64,000 nt of DNA from Octopus vulgaris (taxonomy: Eukaryota), in assembly GCA_951406725.2 (NCBI GenBank), contig OX597816.1:69936001-70000000 (forward strand). Reading direction: 5' to 3'. The notes under the pieces are model-generated. The model was not told the DNA's origin, did no database searches, and was given only the letters and a program-made list of their open reading frames with translations. Within the stretch, counting starts at the first letter, position 1. Every line of letters begins with the position of its first letter. The translations under genes and the position numbers were made by a program. Shown in pieces: positions 4,875 through 60,413 of the stretch.

Positions 4875-5283
4875 GTGTGTGTGTGTGTGTGTGTGTTATT
4901 ATTATTATTTTTTTTTTGAGGGAATAAAATCCAAACTTACAAGGAAAAAGAATTCAATTTAGAAATACCAAATCAAATTCCACACAATATAATATATATA
5001 AAATATTAGAAAAAAGCCACCTTTTATGAATTCAAAATGAATAATTAAATTACACCATCTAGAAAATTACATATAATAGAAAAGTTGAAATTAAAATAAC
5101 AATAAAAAGTAAAGATTAAGTAAATTACAAAAATAATATAATGTATATAATATATATACATGTGTGAGTGTCTGTGTGCACTTTATGCTCTTACACAAAA
5201 GCTCATACACATGTATGTATGTATATATATATAAATTTATATACATGTATATATATATATATGTATATATGTATATATATGTA

Positions 5284-5346
<63 letters not shown>

Positions 5347-6189
5347 GAAAAAAGGTTTGAAAATGCAATTTAAACGATGTTTATTTACTTAACCGGTTTC
5401 ACTCTTTGGTAAAAGATTGTCAAAAGTAACATTGAATATTATGGGTTCAAAAAAAGTTTTTTACATAATTGTCACATTGAATATTATGAATTCAAAAATG
5501 TTTTTTTATACATAATTGTCACATTACATGTATAAATATAGTATAAAAAAGTTCAATAGTGTGATGAGAATATTTGGAAAAATTGGCAGAAAAGAATAAA
5601 ACAAATATATTATTGGAAATTTGGTTGCGTTAATTATTGGTTGTCGCAAATTGTCACATTACATGTATATATATACAGTCTTTGGTAGAAAGGACATGTT
5701 AAAGACATAAGGAAGTGTAATAGTTTGGTGAGAAAGCTTGTAATATTGACAGAGAAAATTAAAATGGATATTTTAGACATCTCAGAATATTTTGAATCGA
5801 AGGCGAGAATTTGTTTTTTACTGACCTGTTTGTTTTAGCAGAAAAGTTGAATTGAGAGAAAAAAAGATATGTACCCAGTTTGGTTTATACTTCCCCTTCA
5901 AGCATCAGTGATTTTGGGGTTATTGGGAGGTGAGTATGCGGGTGTGAATAGATGTGTCCGTGTGCCTGCTGGTCAGACAGCGTCTGTTTGTCACACACAT
6001 ATATACACACACACACAACAACAATACACACACACACATAGTATACAAACACACACCACATACACACAACACACACACACAGAACACACACACACACAAC
6101 GCACCCACATATATAATATATACACACAGCACACAAATATAACATGTATTTATATATAATATACACACATATATAACACATACTCACAC

Positions 6190-6220
<31 letters not shown>

Positions 6221-7424
6221 CACACGCACACATATATACATAATATAAATATCACATACAATACACATACACAGCATGTATATAATACACATACACAATA
6301 TATGCATGCAATATACATACGCAATACATACATATAATATATATATATATAGACAATGCATATACATATATACATATATACATATAAATAGTGTTTACAT
6401 ACACATACATAGATATACCACATATACACACAATATACATACATACAATGCATACACATACACGTACGCATACATATAATATATATAGACACACACACAC
6501 ATAACATACATACACAATGCATATATATATATACACGCAACGTATATACATGTATTCATGTATATATAGCACACCTACAATATACATATATACAATGCAC
6601 ACATACACACATATATACACTTAATTGTACACATACATATACAATACACATACATACAATATACATATACACAATGCGCATGCAAATAATGCACATGTTT
6701 ATACACACATATACATGAAAATATATATACACACACACATATATATATATACACATATATATATATATATACATATACATACATACATACATGCACATAC
6801 ATATATTTTTTCACACACATACACACACATATATATATAAAATTCACACACACACCCACACACACAAAATACAAACCTATTGCGTACACACTCAAATATA
6901 TCTCTACATACCGCACACACACACAAACAATGTACTCACATATACACACATACCATGCATATACACACACAACACACACACATATATATATATATAAAAA
7001 CAAATACACATGTAAATACATACACACGTACACAATGCTGACACACACACACACACATACACACACACACGCACACAGTGCACACACACACACACATATA
7101 TACACACGTGCACACACACACACAACGCGCGCACACACACACACATACACACACGCACACAGTGCACACACACACACACATACATATACACACGCGCACA
7201 CACACACACAACGTGCACACTCACACACACACACACAACACTCACACACATACATAACCTACATATATATAATGCATGCGTGTGCGTGCCACGTATGTGT
7301 GCGGTCAGTGCCCGCTAGTGTGTCCTATGCGTGCCGATGCGCGCATGTGCCCGCCCGCACGATATGCTGTGAGTGTGCGCGTGCCCCTGTGTGCCTTGCT
7401 CTGGATGTGTGCCCAGGGGGTATG

Positions 7425-8150
7425 TTAGAGTATGTTTAGTTGTGGTCTGTATTTTTGAATAAGATTACTTTCCTTATTTATTCGTGTTTGGTCTGTGGTG
7501 TTGTCCGAGCATTGGTATAGTGGGAAGACTAAGAATTTGGGGGACTTATTGTGTGCACAAAGGTCTAAGTGTCCACTTAGTGGTATCTGTCTTGTGGAGG
7601 GGTCCCTCAGTTGTTGTCGGTGAACTGTCATTCTTTCTCTGAGGGTAAGGCTCGTTTGCCCTATGTAGTCTTCGTGGCATCCTTCACACCTTATGACGTA
7701 GAGTAAATTTTTTGATGCGCACGTGAAATTATTTTTTATGATGAATGTGTGTCCCGAGTGGAACTTGTACGACGATCCCTCAATGAGGTGGATGCAGGTC
7801 TTGCAATTGGGGCGACCACATTTTTTGATGGTGGGCGGTGGGTTTGTGTTGTGTAATTTTGCGTTGGTGAGGAGGTTTTTTAGGGATTTAGGTTGTCTCT
7901 TACTTTTTATTATTTTATGAGCTGCCAGTATTTTTTTCAGGCGTGGGTCTTGATTTAGTTGTGGAATGTTGTTGTATATAATAGTGTAAGCTTCTGCATT
8001 CCTTGGGTTGTGTGTTGAGAGATAGGGGAGGCTATTTACTGTACTGTGGATGTGTTTGGGTTTTCGTAGGTCTTGAATGTTGATTGATTTGGCCCGTTCT
8101 ATTCCGTTGTCTACTAGTGATGCCGGGTAATGTCTTTCGAGAAGAATTTT
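7425..8150 (-). CDS. 5'-truncated PLE ORF: RT thumb/linker, Cys-rich linker and GIY-YIG endonuclease (~240 codons, no start codon)
   Basis: Manual in-frame extension of ORF 7425-7631 has no stop: ...LLERHYPASLVDNGIERAK...LPYLSTHNP...KRQPKSLKNLLTNAKL...KCGRPNCKTC...FTCASKNLLYVIRCEGCHEDYIGQTSLTLRERMTVHR...KESNLIQKYRPQLNIL*. Contains LLY-YIG motifs, catalytic R, E and terminal LN. Confidence 0.92.
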   Translation of the reverse strand, partial: KILLERHYPASLVDNGIERAKSINIQDLRKPKHIHSTVNSLPYLSTHNPRNAEAYTIIYNNIPQLNQDPRLKKILAAHKIIKSKRQPKSLKNLLTNAKLHNTNPPPTIKKCGRPNCKTCIHLIEGSSYKFHSGHTFIIKNNFTCASKNLLYVIRCEGCHEDYIGQTSLTLRERMTVHRQQLRDPSTRQIPLSGHLDLCAHNKSPKFLVFPLYQCSDNTTDQTRINKESNLIQKYRPQLNIL

Positions 8151-8805
8151 TGTGTGTGTGGGTGTGTGTGTGAATTTTATATATATATGTGTGTGTATGT
8201 GTGTGAAAAAATATATGTATGTGCATGTATGTATGTATATGTATATATATATATATATGTGTATATATATATATGTGTGTGTGTATATATATTTTCATGT
8301 ATATGTGTGTATAGACATGTGCATTATTTGCATGCGCATTGTGTATATGTATATTGTATGTATGTGTATTGTATATGTATGTGTACAATTAAGTGTATAT
8401 ATGTGTGTATGTGTGCATTGTATATATGTATATTGTAGGTGTGCTATATATACATGAATACATGTATATACGTTGCGTGTATATATATATATGCATTGTG
8501 TATGTATGTTATGTGTGTGTGTGTCTATATATATTATATGTATGCGTACGTGTATGTGTATGCATTGTATGTATGTATATTGTGTGTATATGTGGTATAT
8601 CTATGTATGTGTATGTAAACACTATTTATATGTATATATGTATATATGTATATGCATTGTCTATATATATATATATTATATGTATGTATTGCGTATGTAT
8701 ATTGCATGCATATATTGTGTATGTGTATTATATACATGCTGTGTATGTGTATTGTATGTAGGTGTATTTGTTGATATTTATATTATGTATATATGTGTGC
8801 GTGTG

Positions 8806-8842
<37 letters not shown>

Positions 8843-9590
8843 TATGTGTTATATATGTGTGTATATTATATATAAATACATGTTATATTTGTGTGCTGTG
8901 TGTATATATTATATATGTGGGTGCGTTGTGTGTGTGTGTGTTCTGTGTGTGTGTGTTGTGTGTATGTGGTGTGTGTTTGTATACTATGTGTGTGTGTATT
9001 GTGTGTGTGTGTGTGTATATATGTGTGTGACAAACAGACGCTGTCTGACTAGCAGGCACACGGACACATCTATTCACACCCGCATACTCACCTCCCAATA
9101 ACCCCAAAATCACTGATGCTTGAAGGGGAAGTATAAACCAAACTGGGTACATATCTTTTTTTCTCTCAATTCAACTTTTCTGCTAAAACAAACAGGTCAG
9201 TAAAAAACAAATTCTCGCCTTCGATTCAAAATATTCTGAGATGTCTAAAATATCCATTTTAATTTTCTCTGTCAATATTACAAGCTTTCTCACCAAACTA
9301 TTACACTTCCTTATGTCTTTAACATGTCCTTTCTACCAAAGACTGTATATATATACATGTAATGTGACAATTTGCGACAACCAATAATTAACGCAACCAA
9401 ATTTCCAATAATATATTTGTTTTATTCTTTTCTGCCAATTTTTCCAAATATTCTCATCACACTATTGAACTTTTTTATACTATATTTATACATGTAATGT
9501 GACAATTATGTATAAAAAAACATTTTTGAATTCATAATATTCAATGTGACAATTATGTAAAAAACTTTTTTGAACCCATAATATTCAATG

Positions 9591-9635
9591 TTACTTTTGA
9601 CAATCTTTTACCAAAGAGTGAAACCGGTTAAGTAA
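9591..9635 (+). ncRNA. Minimal type I hammerhead-like motif, U3-A8 core variant (mirror copy 5385-5429, minus)
   Basis: TTACTT-TTGACAA-TCTTT(TACC)AAAGA-GT-GAAA-CCGG-T-T-AAGTAA: 6-bp stem I, 5-bp stem II, palindromic stem III, followed by AATAAA. Confidence 0.65.
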
Positions 9636-9752
9636 ATAAACATCGTTTAAATTGCATTTTCAAACCTTTTTTCATATATAATCCCACTTGTGCGATACCC
9701 CACAACTCAACTTTTTTTTATATATATATATGTATATATGTATATATATGTA

Positions 9753-9802
<50 letters not shown>

Positions 9803-10190
9803 TTAGTGAATTGAAGAAATGGAGTTGAACGAAGATTGAACAGAAATCGTTTTATTGCATTCTACACGTGTTTCGAAAGCCACAATTTACCAAATTCCGA
9901 TTGAATAAGGAGACCATATTGTGTCTTTCTCTTCAGGAAGAAATAGGAATTCCGTTGGCAAAAACAAAAACAGAACAGAGGCGCAGCAAAACAAATCGAA
10001 CGAGGCTCCTAAGAGCCCATGGCCAAACTGTTTATCAATGTATGTTGAAATCGGGTGGTGGGTGCGTTGAAGATTTTAACAGGTCAGGCAGCGGTCATTC
10101 CGGTGGGTGAGAGCACGGGGTGCGTAGATGTTCTTTGTGACCGAGACTAAAGTTCTGACTATTTAAAGAATATTAGGTGTATTATATGGG

Positions 10191-10388: not shown

Positions 10389-11063
10389 CGCTTATAAATA
10401 ATACCTGCACCCGGTTACACTACTTATATGAAAATAGCCCTTGGAAATAAATTTTGAAAAAGCTTTTAAGAGAAATATGATTAACCATTGCAAGGGGAAT
10501 TACTTCCAGGAGACGAATGGTGTTTTGTTTTGACGACGGGGGTTTTTTTTTGACAAAGCATGATTAGACGAACACACGCACACATAAAATATTTTTCTGC
10601 CGCCTGACGGATTTTTCAGCAGTGACCATTGTGTAGGGCTGTTTACCAACTGACGGCCGCGCGATTAAACGCACATACGAACACATAAAATATTTTCTAC
10701 CCCCTGACGGATATCTCAGCAGTGACCAGTGTGTAGCGCTTCTTACCAACTTGCGGCCGCGCACATATAGAACAGTACACACACACATGTTTCTAAGTAG
10801 ATTTTTGCTCGCCCCATATAATACACCTAATATTCTTTAAATAGTCAGAACTTTAGTCTCGGTCACAAAGAACATCTACGCACCCCGTGCTCTCACCCAC
10901 CGGAATGACCGCTGCCTGACCTGTTAAAATCTTCAACGCACCCACCACCCGATTTCAACATACATTGATAAACAGTTTGGCCATGGGCTCTTAGGAGCCT
11001 CGTTCGATTTGTTTTGCTCCGCCTCTGTTCTGTTTTTGTTTTTTCCAACGGATTTCCTATTTC

Positions 11064-11143
11064 TTCCTGAAGAGAAAGACACAATATGGTCTCCTTATTC
11101 AATCGGAATTTGGTAAATTGTGGCTTTCGAAACACGTGTAGAA
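11064..11143 (+). ncRNA. Type I hammerhead ribozyme motif, canonical core, long stem II (mirror copy 9860-9939, minus)
   Basis: TTC-CTGAAGA-GAAAGACACAAT...ATTGTGGCTTTC-GAAA-CACGTG-TA-GAA; predicted cleavage after GUA (11140); AATAAA at 11147. Confidence 0.8.
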
Positions 11144-11354
11144 TGCAATAAAACGATTTCTGTTCAATCTTCGTTCAACTCCATTTCTTCAATTCACTAA
11201 TAATATTAAAATTCAATTATCCGCACCAACGCATGGTTGCAACATCATATGGTTGTACCTCCAACCGTGCTGTCTTCTGCTGTGATTTTTGCTACCAAGG
11301 TATCGGTTAAACTTTTGATTAATCTGCAACAAGATTATTCATCTTTCTATTTCA

Positions 11355-18094: not shown

Positions 18095-18257
18095 TTTGTT
18101 TCTCTTCTTGTTCCTCTCCTTGTTTTTTCTGTGTCCCTTTCTGTAGAAGAGCGTAGGCTCGAAACGTAAAATACTTTTCTATTCCTGAGCGTTATACTAA
18201 TACATGTGTTGGATTTGTACACCACCTGTTTTCGTTTTTTGCTTTTTCGTAAAATCC

Positions 18258-42509: not shown

Positions 42510-43492
<983 letters not shown>

Positions 43493-43498
43493 TTTATC

Positions 43499-43812
43499 GC
43501 AGCGTGGAAAGTGTTTATAAGCCATTTAAGAAACACACAAAAACCGTTAGATTCACTTCAACATTTAAATTTAATTCGCCAAAATATTTTCGTCGTTTTG
43601 AGACCGCGACCTGCAGCACGGAATTTTGTTAGTGAACAGGTCGCGGTCCCAAAGCGACAAAAATATTTTGACAAATTAAATTTAAATGTTGAAATGAATC
43701 TAACGGTTTTTGTGTCTCTTAAATGGTTTATAAACACCTTCCACGCTGCAATTATTTTCGTTCCAGCACGCGATCTCAGATCAGGTCACTTGGTATGAAA
43801 GTATATCTCCGT
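43499..43812 (+). mobile_element. Short PLE-type palindrome, G3-C8 hammerhead family, copy 1 (decayed)
   Basis: Arms 43499-43612 and 43637-43749, tail to 43812; GTGAACA core present but G12 is mutated. Confidence 0.75.
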
Positions 43813-43985
43813 AAATACTTTATTTCCCAATCCAAAAATTCAAGAAGATAAGCCCCTCCAATATATACAAACTTCACAATCACAAAAACTGTAAACCACC
43901 GCAAAACTTTAAAACACAAAAAGAGGAAAAATTTTACAAATCGAAAAAAAAAACAATCCGAGGATTCAAAAGTTCAGCGATGTAA

Positions 43986-44043
<58 letters not shown>

Positions 44044-44045
<2 letters not shown>

Positions 44046-44371
44046 GGAGATGTACTCGCATAGCAAGTAATTTGATCTGAGATCGTATGCTGAAATGAAA
44101 ACAATTGCAGCGTGGAAGGTGTTTATAAGCCATTTAAGAAACACACAAAAGCCGTTCGATTCACTTCAACATTTAAGTTTAATTTGTCAAAATATTTTCG
44201 TCGCTAAAATCCGCGACCTGTTCACTGTCAGCACGGATTTTTGTCAGTGAACAGGTCGCGGATTTTAGCGACGAAAATATTTTGACAAATTAAACTTAAA
44301 TGTTGAAGTGAATCGAACGGCTTTTGTGTGTTTCTTAAATGGCTTATAAACACCTTCCACGCTGCAATTGT
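44044..44371. mobile_element. Short PLE-type palindrome, G3-C8 hammerhead family, copy 2 (127-bp perfect arms 44101-44227 and 44245-44371; tail 44044-44100)
   Basis: Arms read as exact reverse complements by eye; 17-nt spacer. Confidence 0.85.
44240..44289 (+). ncRNA. Minimal type I hammerhead-like motif, G3-C8 core variant
   Basis: TTTGTCA-GTGAACA-G-GTCGC(GGATTTTA)GCGAC-GAAA-ATAT-T-T-TGACAAA: 7-bp stem I, 5-bp stem II, palindromic stem III. Confidence 0.75.
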
Positions 44372-44501
44372 GTTGCATATGTTGATTCGTTAGCTACTGC
44401 ACGCATTTTTTCTCCTTCTTTCTGTTTTTCTCTCTGTGTATCTTTCTGTTGAAGAGCGTAGGCTCGAATTGTTAAAGACTTGTTTTATTTATATTTCCTG
44501 A

Positions 44502-44553
<52 letters not shown>

Positions 44554-45709
44554 ATCGCTTGTAGTACTTAACAGATTTGACCTCTGTTGACCGAAAGGGT
44601 GTGACGCTTCTTTTGTCCCTTGATCGCACTAGGAATGCAAAGTCCCATTGTTGATCTCACCATCTACCGAACCTATTTTCAGACCCGTGGAGTTTGGTTA
44701 ATTCACCAGGCTGCTTCTCTTTCTCCATCTGCTCCAACCCTCACATATTTATGATTATTTCATGTACAAGACAAAAGTTAAAACTAAACAATATTTAATA
44801 ATACCACACAGTAATTGGAGCAAACTTAGCAACTCAAGACGGTTATTATACCAGTGGTTGTAGAGGCGCTGGAAATGATCCGTAAAGTAACTGAAAAATA
44901 TTTGACTCTGGTTCTGTTCTGATGAGTATTTTTTAGCTGCTGCAAGTGTTGTTAGGATTTACGTTTATTGTTCAGGGATTCTGATGATTTGCAATAAAAC
45001 TTCGTTAATTGTCAAGAAATCTATCGTTTTTATTGAACTTTCTATATGTACTGTTCTGTATTTAAGTAGAGAAAGTTGTTGCTATTACTTTTTGTTGTAG
45101 CTCCGCATTCTGGATTAATCTTGGATTGCAAGATGTTTGGGCAGAGACATACCAATCTTTACATCTTTTTATTCGATTCATAATTAATGTAAGTCGAGTG
45201 GGAAAACATCTTCCAATATGTCCTTCATCATTTATAATAAAGTGTACCTGATATGAGGGAAATTGATTACTATTTCTTGCAGATCAGCTGATTGTCTCCA
45301 TTCAGAATCTGTTGGTCATTTACGTGTGCTAGAAATTTTGAGCAAGGGATACCTTGCATAATGATGTGGAGGAGGAGAAGAAAAAGTATGGATGTGTATG
45401 TGTACACAGCCTCTAGAGTGTGGTCATCACCTCACTTTGGATGAAATCTGCAATATATATAAGAAGTGCCACAAAAAATTATCAACGTTACAACCAAATA
45501 GAGAATGTAGCTTGGGAACCAGATATTTATCTGGTATATTTCTCAGTGTGTATGTGTGTGTGTGCGTGTATGAGTGTTTGCGTGTGTACCCGCGAAGAGA
45601 CAGAGAGAGACAGAGAGACAGAGACAGCGAGAGAGAGGAAAGGCAGTGCAGGTGGCTTGACTAAACAATAAGAAATTACTAAACTTGATATAAAATAGAT
45701 GCATGGACA

Positions 45710-46849: not shown

Positions 46850-47490
46850 CACGAAGGAATTCCCTAGACTTAACCAAAACCACACAGATTGTGGCGACAC
46901 AGTTGGGTACCGAATGTGCTGCATTGGAAACTGTGCAAAAAATGGCGGCTAGAGAGAGACGCTGGACGTGGTGTGCGCACAAATTGCGGAAAGTGGGGGG
47001 AGTCGGGGACTAGCAAAATCTTCTGGGATTCCCAATCCAAACAGATCAGGTGTTAGAGCATAACAGACCGGACCTGGTGGTGATCGACAAGATGCACCAC
47101 ATGTGCTATATAGTTAATGTTGCGTGCCTCTTTGACCAACGGTTAGTCAAGAAGGAAGGCGAAAAAATAGATAGCTACAAAACTCATAAGTAAGAAATAG
47201 CCCGGCTATGGAAAATGAAGAAGGTGAAGATAGTGTCAATTATTGTTGGGTACTTGGGGACATTATCAGACGGCATCAAGGGGTATATTTTTAAAAAATG
47301 GTGAGTGCCCAGTAGAACTGTTTCAAAAGGTTTGCCTCCTTGTCACGGCCACAATAATTATGAAAGTATTAACTAGTTGAAAAGAATAGATAGCATGAAA
47401 CCGTAGGGTGCAAGCACCAAGCCTGGTGCGCATTCAAGGCTCCAGGAGTTCCAATGAAACTTGACGTGAGAAGAGAGAAGTAAAAATAAT
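46850..47490 (+). pseudogene. R4/Dong-like LINE 3' remnant with (AAT)n tail
   Basis: WDFPIQTDQVLEHNRPDLVVIDK...VNVACLFD...EKIDSYK...EIARLWKMKKVKIVSIIVGYLG (PD-(D/E)xK restriction-like endonuclease). Confidence 0.85.
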
Positions 47491-47506
47491 AATAATAGTA
47501 ATGATG

Positions 47507-47542
<36 letters not shown>

Positions 47543-47546
47543 TAAT

Positions 47547-48139
47547 ATGCCCTGATGCAGTACCAAGCAGTGGCTCTCATGGCTTCTGATCTTAACTGAT
47601 TGGAAGTGTTATCATGTACATTGTTTTGTCTTGGTATAAAAGATGGGCTACAGCAAATATTCTGCTCAATACCACAGATTTGCTTGTCAGTTGTTTGACC
47701 TTAACCAGTTGAGCATGTCCCTTAGTGGCTGACGATATGTGCATCTCTGATCACGAGCAGAAGTAGTGGGGGAGCATCATAGCCATGTGTTGAGAGGGAT
47801 GCTTTGGGGTTTGAATAGTTCACCTCAGGAAACATGGGTGGTTCTTTCAACATCCTTAAACAACCCTTATTCGGGGACCGTTTGAGCGGGATGGGCTACT
47901 CAACCTGAAGAAAATTCAAACTGGGCCCCACCTGCAAGGTCATGTGCTGTTTATCTTGATATGAGATCACCATGTCGCGCACATATGGTTGTGATGCATG
48001 TGCCTGGTGTACCCTTATCAGACGGGTAGTCATGATGGGTATATTGGGCTTCGTATATTTTACCCCAGTGTCACTTTGATGGCATGCACTGCTCTCTCAC
48101 TCAATAATAATAATAATAATAATAATAATGATAATAATG

Positions 48140-48224
<85 letters not shown>

Positions 48225-48819
48225 TGAAGATGATGATGATCATTATTATCATTATTATTATCACTGAGTGAGAGAGCAGTGCATGCCATCAAAGTGACAC
48301 TGGGGTAAAATATACGAAGCCCAGTATACCCATCATGACTACCCGTCTGATAAGGGTACACTAGGCACATGCATCACAACCATATGTGCGCGACATGGTG
48401 ATCTCATATCAAAATAAACAGCACATGACCTTGCAGGTGGGGCCCAGTTAGAATTTTCTTCAGGTCGAGTAACCCATCCCACTCGAAAGGTCCCTGAATA
48501 AGGGTTGTTTAAGGATGTTGAACGAAACACCCATGTTTCCAGAGGTGAATTATTGAAACCCCAAAGAATCCCTCTCAACACATGGCTATGATGCTCCCCC
48601 ACTACTTCTGCTCGTGATCAGAGATGCACATATCGTCAGCCACTAAGGGACATGCTCAACTGGTTAAAGTCAAACAACTGACAAGCAAATCTGTGGTATT
48701 GAGCAGAATATTTGCTGTAGCCCATCTTTTATACCAAGACAAAACAATGTACATGATAACACTTCCAATCAGTTAAGATCAGAAGCCATGAGAGCCACTG
48801 CCTGGTACTGCATCAGGGC

Positions 48820-48821
<2 letters not shown>
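47547..48821. mobile_element. Two ~555-bp copies of one interspersed element, tail to tail (47547-48103 plus, 48265-48821 minus), around an (AAT)n/(ATT)n core
   Basis: Arms are reverse complements with scattered substitutions; both start ATGCCCTGATGCAGTACC and end GCTCTCTCACTCA next to AAT repeats. Confidence 0.9.
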
Positions 48822-48883
<62 letters not shown>

Positions 48884-49769
48884 GTCCTTCCCTTTCTACC
48901 TCAATATTCGAAAATGTAAACAAACTTTTTATTTTAAGAACACTACAGATTTCCCTCTTCGGACATACAAACGATCTTCTTTAGAAAATTTAAAATCTTT
49001 TAATATCTACAATTTTCTGTGATAACTTTACTATTCTTTTCTTTCCTTTCACCCTGATTATTCGACAATGTAAACATAACATGCTTTTTATTGCAAGAAC
49101 ACTACAGTTTTCTCTCTGCGGGCATACAAACGATCAACTTTACAAAATTTAATATTTCAATATCTACAATTTTCATTGAACATTTTACCCTTCTTTTCTC
49201 TGTGACTACACGAAAATGTAAACATATCTTTTGTTGCAACAAATTAAGCGCACGATAAATATTAAGGAGATAAGCACCTGCCAATATATGCAAACTTCAA
49301 AGTCACGAAAGCTCTAAACCATAGCAAAGCCTCTAGAATGAAAAGGAAAATTCAAAATAACCAAAAATTCAAAAGTTCAACGATGTAAACATCAGTATAA
49401 ATATACTAATATTTTTCTATCAGTAATTAAAAACAGAACAAGGTGAATTGCTTCTTTCCAAGGCGAAGGTCAGTTCTCTCATTGATCGTTAGTAGTTGTA
49501 AACACATTTTACCTCTGCTGGCTGCAAAGGTGTGACACTTCTTTTGTCCTCTGATCGCACAGGAATGCGAAGTGCTATTTTTGATCTCCTTCCCACGATC
49601 TACCGAACCTATTTACAGACTTGTGAAAATTGGTCTATTCATCAAGCTGCTTCTCTTTCTCCTGCTATCTCCTCCAACCCTCACATATTTATGATTGTCT
49701 CAAGTACAAGACAAAAGTGGAAACTACACAGCATTTAATAATCCCACACAGTAGTAAGAGCAAAGATGG

Positions 49770-50290
49770 CATCTCAAGATGGTTACAATACCAGTGATTG
49801 TAGGTGCACTTGGAATGATAAAAAAATAGGGACTAAAAATTATTTAAGAATCATCCCTGGATTATCATCAATGCAGGAAGTACGAAAGCTTGTATTAACT
49901 GATACGTCACACGTATTGAGATGAACGTTGTCACTATGAATTTTCTTTCCTTTTTGTCCTTTCTTTTTTTTTGTTTACATTTATATTTCTTACATTTTAT
50001 TTCTATCCTTCTCCCCCTTTTTTCTATTACATGACTTTGTAAATGAAGTGGCAGATACGAAGATTGTGGTCAATGAAGGGAGTAGACGTGATACCAATAG
50101 TAATTGGTGCATATGGAAGTATCAGCACTCAACTACCAACGTGGCTGAAAAAGATCGGTGCAAGTGTGAAGGTAGAACACCTACAAAAATCAGCATTGCT
50201 TGGAACTGCAAGAATTTTTCACAGGGTTCTTGAAGCATCGCCAGTAAACAAGTAAAATAAACTGATAGTTTTCTTCACATGATAATAAGG
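49770..50290 (+). pseudogene. Two R4/Dong-like LINE C-terminal fragments
   Basis: HLKMVTIPVIVGALGMIKK and KWQIRRLWSMKGVDVIPIVIGAYG...LQKSALLGTARIFHRVLE. Confidence 0.8.
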
Positions 50291-58610: not shown

Positions 58611-60413
58611 TCATAGGATTATGCTCAAGGTGGCTTCGTCATTCATACGTGCCATCATTGCTACATTCACCCATCCTTTTTTAAAACATTCGCAAGACAA
58701 AACCTGCCTCTCTAATCTCACTTTCCTTTTCAAGTGGTACTTGAAGAAGTTAATGAGAGATTGAGCAGAGAGGAAAGTGTTTGTCTCCAATCCTTTCAGA
58801 CGCGTCCACCAAATACATTCTTTCGCCATAGCCACAAGGATTATTAAAATAGCTCTTCCTTCCCGTTTGAAGGAAGGAGGCGAGACAATATTGACGATAG
58901 ACTCAGCTGATAAACCGACTCGTCCCACACGTGACAGCAGTTGTTCGACATAAGCCCATAGTTCGGAAATTGTTGGACACTGCACGAGTGCGTGCAGAAC
59001 GGTTTCGTCGCTCTGACCGCATCTCGGGCAGGTCGGCCCCGTGTTTCTCAAGCCGTGTTGGTAGAGCTTATCCCGAATAGGTAGCGCTTCTCGGTAGCAC
59101 TGCCAGGCCAGGGATCTCTGGAAGTTGTCCATGGGCCCCGGCCCGAAAGTCGTCCCGAACAGGCGGGTCAGGTATTCCTCCTCGACGTCCAGGTTCGCCA
59201 CGAGCTCGTCATCGTATCTCCCCTCCACTAATCCCCTATAGAATGCTTTGGTTATGATGGAGTCACTCAAGGTCGACCCAGGACCGCAGAGTTGCTTGAG
59301 AGCAACGCGACACTCGCGGTGCCATTTGCCCTTCCTCGGCCTCTTTTTGATCCACGACTGCAGTTCGGTCATAGAGACGAGCTGCGGGAAAGCGTGCCCC
59401 ACAAACGGCAACCACACCTGTTCACCGTCGTCTACGAAGAGCCTGAGATGTCGCAGTCTCAGCGCGTGTTTGCGCATCATCAACCACGGCATGCCCAGTC
59501 CTCCTTTTAACGGGTGTTGACAGCAAATGGATCGCCTGACCATCGGGACGCATCCTTTCCACAAGAAGCGAAAGAGAATGCGTTCTAGTTTGGTGATGGT
59601 AGGGTCACGACAAGGCACGACGGTCAGGCGGTAGTAGATGACGGACGCGATGTACGTGTTCGCCACCTCCGCCCGACCTTTTAGGGACAGTTTCCTCTCG
59701 GCCCATTTCCGGGCGAGAGTGACCACCCTACTCGTTATCTCGTTCCAGTTCTTCTCCACTTGGAGGTCCGGACCGAACCAGACCCCGAGCAACTCGACCG
59801 GACCGTCGGTCCAGCGTCCAACGACGGAGGCGCTGGTGGACGGCATGGGCTTGCTTCTCCAGGTGCGTAGTCGCAAGCCCACTGACTTTTCCCGGTTGGT
59901 TTTAGCTCCTATCACCGCTTCGTAGTTTTTCAGTGTCTCGCCGACCTGCTCGATGTGCTATGGCTAGACACTATGACGATGACGTCGTCTGCGTATGCAG
60001 ACACGCTCGTCCCGCATCCCAGTTCTCGCGGGATGCCCCTCATAGTTGCCAGCTTCAGCAATAATGGCTCGGGAGTCAATACGTATAGAAGCGACGAGAG
60101 GGGGCATCCCTGACAGACCAAACTAGCGATGTCGAAAGGTCTCGATAGATGTCCATTTACGCGAAATACTGAACGGATGCCTCTGTACAAAGCGGCTATC
60201 CAGCCGCGGAAGACGGGACCGAAGCTAGCCGCTCTGACGACAGCCCCCAAGTATCGATGGTCCACCCTATCGAAAGCTTTTGATTGATCCAAATTGATCC
60301 AAATTGATCAGCGCCCCACCCATGCCAGGTTCGTTAACTACCCTGTCTATGATGTAGCGCATCAGGTGGAGGTTGTCATGGATGGTCCGGCCTGGCACGG
60401 TGCACGTTTGCGC
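58611..60413 (-). pseudogene. Tx1-like ORF2 (reverse transcriptase plus C-terminal zinc finger), frameshifted
   Basis: [55 protein letters not shown]...ETVLHALVQCP; 10-bp duplication GATCCAAATT near 60290 and a frameshift near 59950. Confidence 0.92.

What the first reader, a model, noticed from the sequence alone, without database searches (positions are those of the whole stretch)
44044..44371. Perfect 127-bp hairpin element with a G3-C8 (GUGAACA) hammerhead and a UUU cleavage triplet
Seen: identical arms, 7-bp stem I, 5-bp GC-rich stem II after one extra G, and palindromic AAUAUU stem III. The same GUGAACA core is in the diverged copy at 43632, so it is a family trait rather than a one-off mutation. 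Inference: a young non-coding retro-element with an inverted core pair; the palindromic stem III would favour dimer cleavage.
Basis: partly seen in the sequence, partly recalled or inferred. Interest (0 to 1): 0.75.

Follow-up and report, generated by a model that had tools for sequence, protein, structure and literature searches.

The report
Penelope retroelement end with swapped-core hammerhead
This perfect DNA hairpin is made of two head-to-head copies of the end of an abundant repeat, likely a Penelope-type jumping gene of an octopus, and it carries a predicted self-cutting RNA (hammerhead) whose central C-G pair is flipped to G-C across the family, a form known from lab mutants that would be a new natural variant if it cuts.

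Summary
Observation confirmed: 127/127-bp arms (44101-44227, 44245-44371) and a minimal type-I hammerhead shape with core GUGAACA, matched by 0 of 30 shuffled windows. The hairpin is not a stand-alone non-coding element. An ATG 56 nt after the predicted cut opens a peptide that begins named Octopus proteins; these link by homology to ~1000-aa reverse transcriptase + GIY-YIG proteins. The four arms in the window end at codon 10-11 or codon 30, the terminal-repeat-plus-tail anatomy published for Penelope-like elements (PLEs), and inverted truncated copies abut a fixed 5' end. In four sequencing runs no variant above 2% of depth touches the seven core bases, so G3-C8 is family-wide. Engineered G3-C8 partly rescues cleavage; I found no natural case in print (4 targeted searches; Lunse 2017 unreadable). 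Against: cleavage untested, no compensatory covariation, copies span the cut site (uncut template), the ribozyme cannot fold inside this hairpin, and no full-length copy was seen on one DNA. This scan noted a similar G3-C8 motif before in a protist PLE (e1-7369241, unchecked). Verdict: new variant of a known kind.

The parts
43990..44044 (.). (TA)n microsatellite into which the tailed arm runs
44044..44100 (-). Optional 'tail' on the inverted arm, codons 12-30 of the ORF
   Evidence: tblastn of P0001: residues 1-30 match 44133-44044, 83%; same end point as tail of copy 1
44101..44227 (-). Left arm: inverted, 5'-truncated copy of the terminal repeat, cut 2 nt upstream of the core so stem I is lost
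44228..44244 (+). Spacer of the hairpin; holds the family's fixed 5' boundary (about 44229) and most of the 5' strand of stem I
   Evidence: about 10-fold depth step and opposite-strand joints at 44229-44231; same sequence at 43614
44240..44289 (+). Predicted minimal type-I hammerhead: stem I 7 bp, core G3-U4-G5-A6-A7-C8-A9, extra G, stem II 5 bp with G10.1-C11.1, G12-A13-A14-A15.1, palindromic AAUAUU, predicted cut after U17 (44282)
   Evidence: activity not tested
44245..44371 (+). Right arm: direct terminal repeat, ends 89 nt after the predicted cut at codon 11
   Evidence: loose ends behind 44371 in all 4 runs
44339..44371 (+). Start of the element's ORF, 11 codons, 11 of 11 identical to the N-terminus of P0001
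43496..43612 (-). Older copy, inverted arm; begins at the A9 position, ends at codon 10 beside (AAT)n 43357-43491
43613..43752 (+). Older copy, direct arm; GTGAACA at 43632, G12 replaced by A; arms 105 matches, 10 mismatches, 2 gaps
43753..43817 (+). Older copy, tail on the direct arm, ORF codons to 30 (43723-43812, 77% to P0001)

Best explanation
The hairpin is two head-to-head copies of one end sequence of a high-copy repeat that holds the first codons of a protein and is likely the terminal repeat (pLTR) of a Penelope-like retrotransposon, with a predicted hammerhead ribozyme whose 3-8 core pair is flipped family-wide and that would cut slowly, probably as a dimer or with protein help. Steps. 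Shown: the perfect arms; the fixed 5' end with inverted copies joined at variable points; the two 3' ends at codon 10-11 and codon 30; the homology chain from that peptide to RT + GIY-YIG proteins; GUGAACA as the family state. Inferred from published PLE biochemistry: the element's protein nicks AT-rich DNA, starts reverse transcription inside the ORF at one of the two sites and copies the uncut RNA back to its 5' end (about 44229); a second, shorter copy is laid down inverted. Inferred from folding: in the parent RNA the motif folds (stem probabilities 0.65-1.0), G3-C8 keeps the core Watson-Crick pair, and U17 avoids an inhibitory G3-C17 pair; at this locus a read-through transcript would be a 127-bp double helix with the ribozyme unfolded, so this copy is a silent insertion product.
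For: Arms and motif. Family and junctions: (14,252 / 13,761 / 5,389 / 1,941 contig pieces laid on 44190-44500, which include two other repeats at 44379-44500; opposite-strand joints 44229-44231 with 44269, 44285, 44335, 44336; no variant of 2% depth or more at 44239-44257 or 44274-44284; loop II variable with indels; 44285 A>G at 7-17% keeps a U-G pair). ORF link: 1 hit among 4 candidates, P0001 Octopus sinensis, E 1.6e-15; P0002 O. bimaculoides 86% and P0003/P0019 O. vulgaris 78-79% to P0001 1-222; P0019 reaches RT motif A and is 37% identical to 1047-aa P0018, E 4e-98; of 30 long homologs 30 have DK[ST], motif A and motif B, 27 motif C, 26 a C-terminal Cx2-5CxxC; atlas neighbours at 0.96-0.98 carry RVT_1, GIY-YIG and HTH_animal; the P0018 model (pLDDT 85.5) has telomerase RTs as its top 3 Foldseek matches. 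Literature: pLTR holding 12 codons, tail to 22, shorter inverted pLTR (PMC3846280); RT start 85-92 nt after the cut, C3G/G8C partial rescue, uncut RNA as template (PMC11167929); G:C swap the only rescuing double mutant of the core (PMC9901934); extra nucleotide, G10.1-C11.1 and palindrome as PLE hammerhead traits (PMC4209133).
Against: No cleavage data. No compensatory double change shown: the pair count on 4 arms did not beat shuffles (134 of 500; its one two-sided change comes from non-homologous junction bases), and one search gives no phase. Hammerhead and RT gene were never seen on one DNA molecule; P0001 is a gene model fused to a methyltransferase from residue about 225 and the full-length proteins are 23-44% relatives from unnamed records. 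Pfam support for RT and GIY-YIG is weak: 5 and 3 of 29 proteins, all below cut-off; Foldseek TM-scores are 0.26 and spliceosomal and other RT folds follow closely. All 4 arms extend 5' of the cut site, so their templates were uncut. Dimer fold is only 0.6 kcal/mol better than two monomers and is not the co-fold minimum. MFE pairs G3 with U17, a possible off-pathway pair.
Confidence: 0.72

Rival explanations
1. Same PLE origin, but the motif no longer cuts: it is kept as a folded protein-binding or start-site element, or is a relic fixed in one successful master.
For: All 4 arms span the cut site; PAc transposes in vitro without cleavage and no RNA ends map to its cut (PMC11167929); no covariation; G3-U17 wobble in the MFE; the family is young enough that sequence conservation alone says little.
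Against: Both 3 and 8 changed, to the one pair that rescues in mutagenesis, with all other core bases intact; loop II varies while stems do not; a dead motif has no reason to land on this double change.
Confidence: 0.25
2. The repeat spreads as a short non-autonomous unit (solo pLTR or retrozyme-like circle of about 145-200 nt) that borrows the PLE protein, rather than as pieces of full-length elements.
For: Fixed 5' end with mixed upstream sequence (agreement 0.48); go-back joints to 44229 and one 44371-to-44267 joint in 2 of 4 runs; CAGCACG repeated 150 nt apart in copy 1; animal retrozymes derive from pLTRs (bioRxiv 10.64898/2026.07.22.740005).
Against: No tandem array in the window; ends fall at ORF codons as in autonomous PLE insertions; several contigs run 270-890 nt upstream of 44239, two at depth 68 and 210 (sequences not shown). 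Not exclusive with the best explanation.
Confidence: 0.25
3. A MITE or foldback DNA transposon whose arms look like a hammerhead by chance.
For: Long perfect inverted repeat and high copy number.
Against: Arms are unequal at both ends, the inner junction moves from copy to copy, no target duplication of 5 bp or more, arms encode the start of an RT ORF, motif not reached by 30 shuffles.
Confidence: 0.03
4. The perfect hairpin is an assembly or fold-back read artefact.
For: 0 differences in 127 bp; no listed contig piece spans the whole stretch.
Against: A diverged hairpin of the same build lies 600 bp away; arms differ beyond 44101/44371; similar inverted joints occur in contigs of 2 of the 4 runs.
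Confidence: 0.03

Closest known systems
Minimal hammerheads of metazoan Penelope-like elements (Cervera and de la Pena 2014, PMC4209133)
   Same: Type I, no true stem III, palindromic 15.1-16.1, extra nucleotide after A9, G10.1-C11.1, U17 common, opposite-strand pairs 100-700 bp apart reported.
   Different: Core is GUGAACA; 0 of 56 representatives in Fig. S3 have G3 (53 C3, 3 U3). Extra base is G (consensus H; 1 of 56 has G). Stem I is 7 bp.
PAc, Poseidon element of Anolis (Frangieh et al. 2024, PMC11167929)
   Same: Hammerhead at the pLTR-ORF junction; insertion ends inside the ORF 85-92 nt after the cut (89 here); optional tail; AT-rich targets; C3G/G8C partly active.
   Different: PAc is naturally C3-G8 and its ATG lies 26 nt before the cut; here the ATG is 56 nt after it and the tail is about 57 nt, not 30-40.
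Adineta vaga Pen2a (Arkhipova et al. 2013, PMC3846280)
   Same: pLTR with the first 12 codons, tail to 22, adjacent shorter inverted pLTR.
   Different: Here no ORF lies between repeats, no target duplication is seen, and copy number is high.
Nematis clade PLEs (Craig et al. 2021, PMC8557442 and supplement)
   Same: C-terminal GIY-YIG with CCHH and a short Cx2-5CxxC linker in the homologous long proteins.
   Different: RT motif A-to-B spacing 126-135 aa against about 62 read off the Nematis_Cr rows; RKDHK and GGAIG motifs occur 0 times in that supplement's text. Clade not tested by a tree.
Animal non-LTR retrozymes (Cervera and de la Pena 2020, PMC7229834)
   Same: Short, AT-rich, hammerhead-bearing, high copy.
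   Different: Retrozymes are tandem arrays with canonical hammerheads; this is an inverted pair with a minimal variant and ORF codons.

Membership tests
Penelope-like element (C-terminal endonuclease type) | Terminal repeat that includes the first codons of the ORF, with optional tail at one end | tested here: met
   2 arms end at codon 10-11, 2 at codon 30; one tailed arm per hairpin
Penelope-like element (C-terminal endonuclease type) | Inverted 5'-truncated copy adjacent to the 5' end | tested here: met
   both window copies; opposite-strand joints at 44229-44231
Penelope-like element (C-terminal endonuclease type) | Single ORF with telomerase-like RT and C-terminal GIY-YIG | tested here: met
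   by homology chain only; octopus records reach RT motif A, full-length relatives are unnamed records
Penelope-like element (C-terminal endonuclease type) | Full-length copy with ORF between two such repeats on one DNA | not testable with these tools
   no genome held; contig sequences not shown
Penelope-like element (C-terminal endonuclease type) | AT-rich or microsatellite target; target duplication | tested here: inconclusive
   one end of each copy abuts (TA)n or (AAT)n; no duplication of 5 bp or more
Minimal type-I hammerhead | Stems I and II around the core, GAAA, NUH triplet | tested here: met
Minimal type-I hammerhead | Core sequence CUGANGA (or U3-A8) | tested here: not met
   GUGAACA; pair kept, identity swapped; no Rfam match
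Minimal type-I hammerhead | Extra nucleotide, G10.1-C11.1, palindromic stem III | tested here: met
   against PMC4209133; extra base is G, outside consensus H
Minimal type-I hammerhead | Compensatory covariation in stems across copies | tested here: inconclusive
   only wobble-type changes; no phase; 4 arms do not beat shuffles
Minimal type-I hammerhead | Self-cleavage after position 17 | not testable with these tools
   needs in vitro assay
Nematis clade | Short Cx2-5CxxC linker before GIY-YIG | tested here: met
   26 of 30 long homologs against Nematis rows
Nematis clade | RT phylogeny and fingers region without long insertion | tested here: inconclusive
   A-B spacing about 70 aa longer; no tree with reference elements was built
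Non-LTR retrozyme | Head-to-tail tandem units each with a hammerhead | tested here: not met
   no tandem in window; only a few go-back joints elsewhere
MITE / foldback DNA transposon | Matched terminal inverted ends and target duplication | tested here: not met
   unequal ends, variable inner junction, no duplication

The most novel reading that the evidence does not exclude
A catalytically active natural hammerhead with an inverted G3-C8 core pair, fixed across a very abundant octopus PLE family, which itself belongs to an undescribed PLE lineage (Nematis-type endonuclease linker plus a 70-residue longer RT fingers region). Because each single change kills cleavage, the double swap would show selection for ribozyme activity in the PLE cycle.
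Probability: 0.35. Interest if true: 0.7.

Novelty: new variant of a known kind. Interest (0 to 1): 0.5.

Why it matters
Whether PLE hammerheads do anything is open: in the one PLE reconstituted in vitro, cleavage was dispensable (PMC11167929). A family that changed both partners of the core pair to the only rescuing combination is a natural test of selection on the ribozyme, and it can be assayed with a 55-nt RNA. It also implies that descriptors demanding CUGANGA or UUGANAA miss whole high-copy families, and it points to a possibly uncatalogued PLE lineage. The hairpin build itself is ordinary for PLEs.

Tried and rejected
Own-genome search: no genome held, so no copy alignment or master. 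Pattern scans: metagenomes gave 3 matches, all 59-61% GC with no flanking similarity, rejected as chance; viral 0; prokaryote genomes 0. Rfam: 0 at gathering; 29 matches at E<=10, all below gathering, the best being miRNA models that score any long hairpin. Expression: no RNA holder listed; X13 is only guessed to be RNA, so one search is not used as evidence of transcription. Word search for long relatives of P0001 1-222 found 0 of 563 candidates; atlas search of that part gave nothing usable; the link came. Pfam on P0002-P0018 gave no RT or GIY-YIG hit (apart from RVT_1 E 0.014 in P0021); PDB sequence search gave only a 66-position match to a defence RT. Pair counts on four arms uninformative. 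Two joints end 1-2 nt after the predicted cut (44284, 44285) but others end at 44269, 44289, 44309, 44321, 44335, so no cut-site enrichment is claimed. The stop-to-stop frame 43313-43798 is incidental: it runs through (AAT)n and depends on a 2-nt deletion. The GIY-YIG fragment at 7425-8294 is another family (only its endonuclease aligns, 32%). Lunse et al. 2017 not held; supplement file 1 of PMC4209133 not searchable; bioRxiv supplements closed. Any of these may list a natural G3-C8 case. Earlier scan notes by sequence and place: none.

Full report
Observation. The window is AT-rich (GC 0.25-0.50 by 2-kb bin), full of microsatellites, and no genome is held for it. The longest perfect inverted repeat near the finding is 127 bp: 44101-44227 and 44245-44371, 17 nt apart. 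A strict descriptor allowing any Watson-Crick 3-8 pair found this one site in the window; 30 shuffled windows gave 0 sites with stems as long. A looser descriptor gave 4 rows: this site, two copies of a U3-A8 motif of another element, and one weak AT-rich match. The older copy at 43496-43817 has the same build, the same core and a lost G12. Rfam has no hammerhead match.

Family. 20 of 24 listed runs, from 10 studies, hold the stretch; none is on record as RNA. I laid 4 of them on 44190-44500 at 80% likeness. Thousands of contig pieces fit in each, part of them from two other repeats at 44379-44500. Summed depth rises about tenfold at 44229, and sequence before that point is mixed (agreement 0.48). 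Opposite-strand joints link 44229-44231 to 44269, 44285, 44335 and 44336, so inverted copies truncated at different points abut a fixed 5' end elsewhere too. Many pieces leave the reference at 44371 and go on with the tail. No variant of 2% depth or more is listed at 44239-44257 (stem I 5' strand, core, first three bases of stem II) or 44274-44284. Loop II carries many substitutions and indels. Changes in stem II and at G12 are CpG-type, 0.2-5.5%. The one common stem change, 44285 A>G (7-17%), keeps a U-G pair. This is conservation in a young family, not covariation; the table gives no phase and a count on the 4 window arms did not beat shuffles. Both arms of the perfect hairpin share three states that differ from about half or more of family depth (44295, 44315, 44321), so they come from one template or were homogenised.

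What it is. An ATG at 44339, 56 nt after the predicted cut, opens a frame that stays open through the tail in both tailed arms. A profile of these two peptides found 1 protein among 4 candidates, an Octopus sinensis gene model starting with the same 30 residues; its C-terminal third is an unrelated methyltransferase, so it is a chimeric model. Back in the window, the four arms end at codons 10, 11, 30 and 30. Residues 1-223 of that model found 17 relatives, among them O. bimaculoides and O. vulgaris proteins at 78-86%. The O. vulgaris protein P0019 runs on to RT motif A and aligns at 37% over 462 residues with the 1047-aa P0018. A search with P0003 gave 29 long proteins. With P0018, all 30 have the DK motif and RT motifs A and B, 27 motif C, and 26 a C-terminal cysteine linker before a GIY-YIG-type region; a strict GIY-YIG pattern matched only 6. 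Pfam hits are few and below cut-off, but atlas neighbours carry RVT_1, GIY-YIG and HTH_animal and the P0018 model's top three structural matches are telomerase RTs, at low TM-score. The host is therefore likely an octopus and the repeat likely the pLTR of a PLE. The hammerhead and the RT gene were not seen on one DNA.

How it likely works. Published PLEs have this anatomy: a pLTR holding the first 12 codons, a tail to 22 and a shorter inverted pLTR (PMC3846280, passages); complex inverted insertions with a tail at one end and microsatellite bias (PMC8557442, passages and supplement rows). In PAc, reverse transcription starts inside the ORF at two sites that define the tail, 111-118 nt into the ORF with the cut at 26, after nicking AT-rich DNA, and uses uncut RNA (PMC11167929, main text read). 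I infer the same here: priming at codon 11 or 30, copying back to the RNA 5' end near 44229, and a second shorter inverted copy. All arms extend 5' of the cut, which fits uncut templates. Alone, 44229-44371 folds both stems with probability 0.65-1.0; with the left arm present both fall to 0.0 (hairpin -225.7 kcal/mol), and the left arm's own copy lacks stem I. So this locus is an insertion product, not a working ribozyme.

The core. C3G or G8C alone abolish cleavage and the double mutant partly restores it, also in a PLE hammerhead; in pairwise mutagenesis the G:C swap was the only rescue in that motif (PMC9901934, passages). A G3-C8 variant is reported to do worse with C17 (PMC3884650, passage, data not shown there), which fits U17 here, although U17 is common in PLE hammerheads anyway. 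Natural 3-8 variation on record is U3-A8 (PMC3088659, passages; PMC4209133, main text parts 1-2 of 4); 0 of 56 representative PLE-type motifs have G3 (supplement file 2, parts 1-2 of 3). Four searches aimed at G3-C8 and two at octopus or cephalopod hammerheads showed no natural case; passages of PMC6765202, PMC10085705, PMC6155905, PMC7229834, PMC11014351 and PMC13282606 added none. Lunse et al. 2017, the largest survey of such variants, could not be read, and Martick and Scott 2006 is cited only through others. Dimer cleavage is the published mode for these motifs, with low rates; my dimer estimate was -28.8 against -28.2 kcal/mol. An unchecked scan note reports G3-C8 with an extra base in a protist PLE tail; it agrees but is not independent proof.

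Lineage. The relatives' endonuclease linker looks like Nematis, but RT motifs A and B are 126-135 residues apart against about 62 that I counted in the Nematis_Cr rows; Craig et al. describe fingers insertions of about 20-40 residues only in other clades. Two searches showed no such lineage. No tree was built, so this is a lead.

Verdict. Real, explained as a PLE terminal-repeat insertion, ordinary in build, unusual in its family-wide G3-C8 core. New variant of a known kind; interest 0.5.

Noticed in passing
window 5248-9796: Another PLE: GIY-YIG ORF end at 7425-8294 (-) (Pfam E 4e-5) inside a 1.6-kb inverted repeat, with a U3-A8 minimal hammerhead at 5423 (-) and 9597 (+) about 50 nt from (TA)n ends.
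   Followed up: partly
window 44425-44504 and 18121-18183: Second very high-copy family with a hammerhead-like end whose core reads CTGTTGA or CTGTAGA, i.e. U in place of A6; possible further core variant.
   Followed up: partly
window 9795-10190 and 10813-11208: 396-bp inverted repeat at 99% with a CUGAAGA...GAAACACGTGTA hammerhead-like motif near 11067-11140; likely a third PLE end.
   Followed up: no
window 44238-44255: C8, A9, the extra G and G10.1 read CAG|G behind a T-rich tract, like a 3' splice site; in D. virilis Penelope an intron ends at helix I. Could have favoured C8. No splice joint seen.
   Followed up: no
window 43834-44879 versus 49257-49819: The (TA)n-bounded block 43990-44551 interrupts an older repeat with an uninterrupted-looking relative at 49257-49819 (70% and 80%).
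   Followed up: partly
window 47461-48904: 1.4-kb palindrome, 92% between arms, centred on and flanked by (AAT)n; family not identified.
   Followed up: no
P0001, P0011, P0019: Octopus gene models that begin with or include pieces of this PLE ORF fused to unrelated sequence (methyltransferase in P0001); likely annotation chimeras, exonisation not excluded.
   Followed up: no
window 58611-60307 (-): Broken non-LTR RT with zf-RVT domain (Pfam E 2e-8).
   Followed up: no
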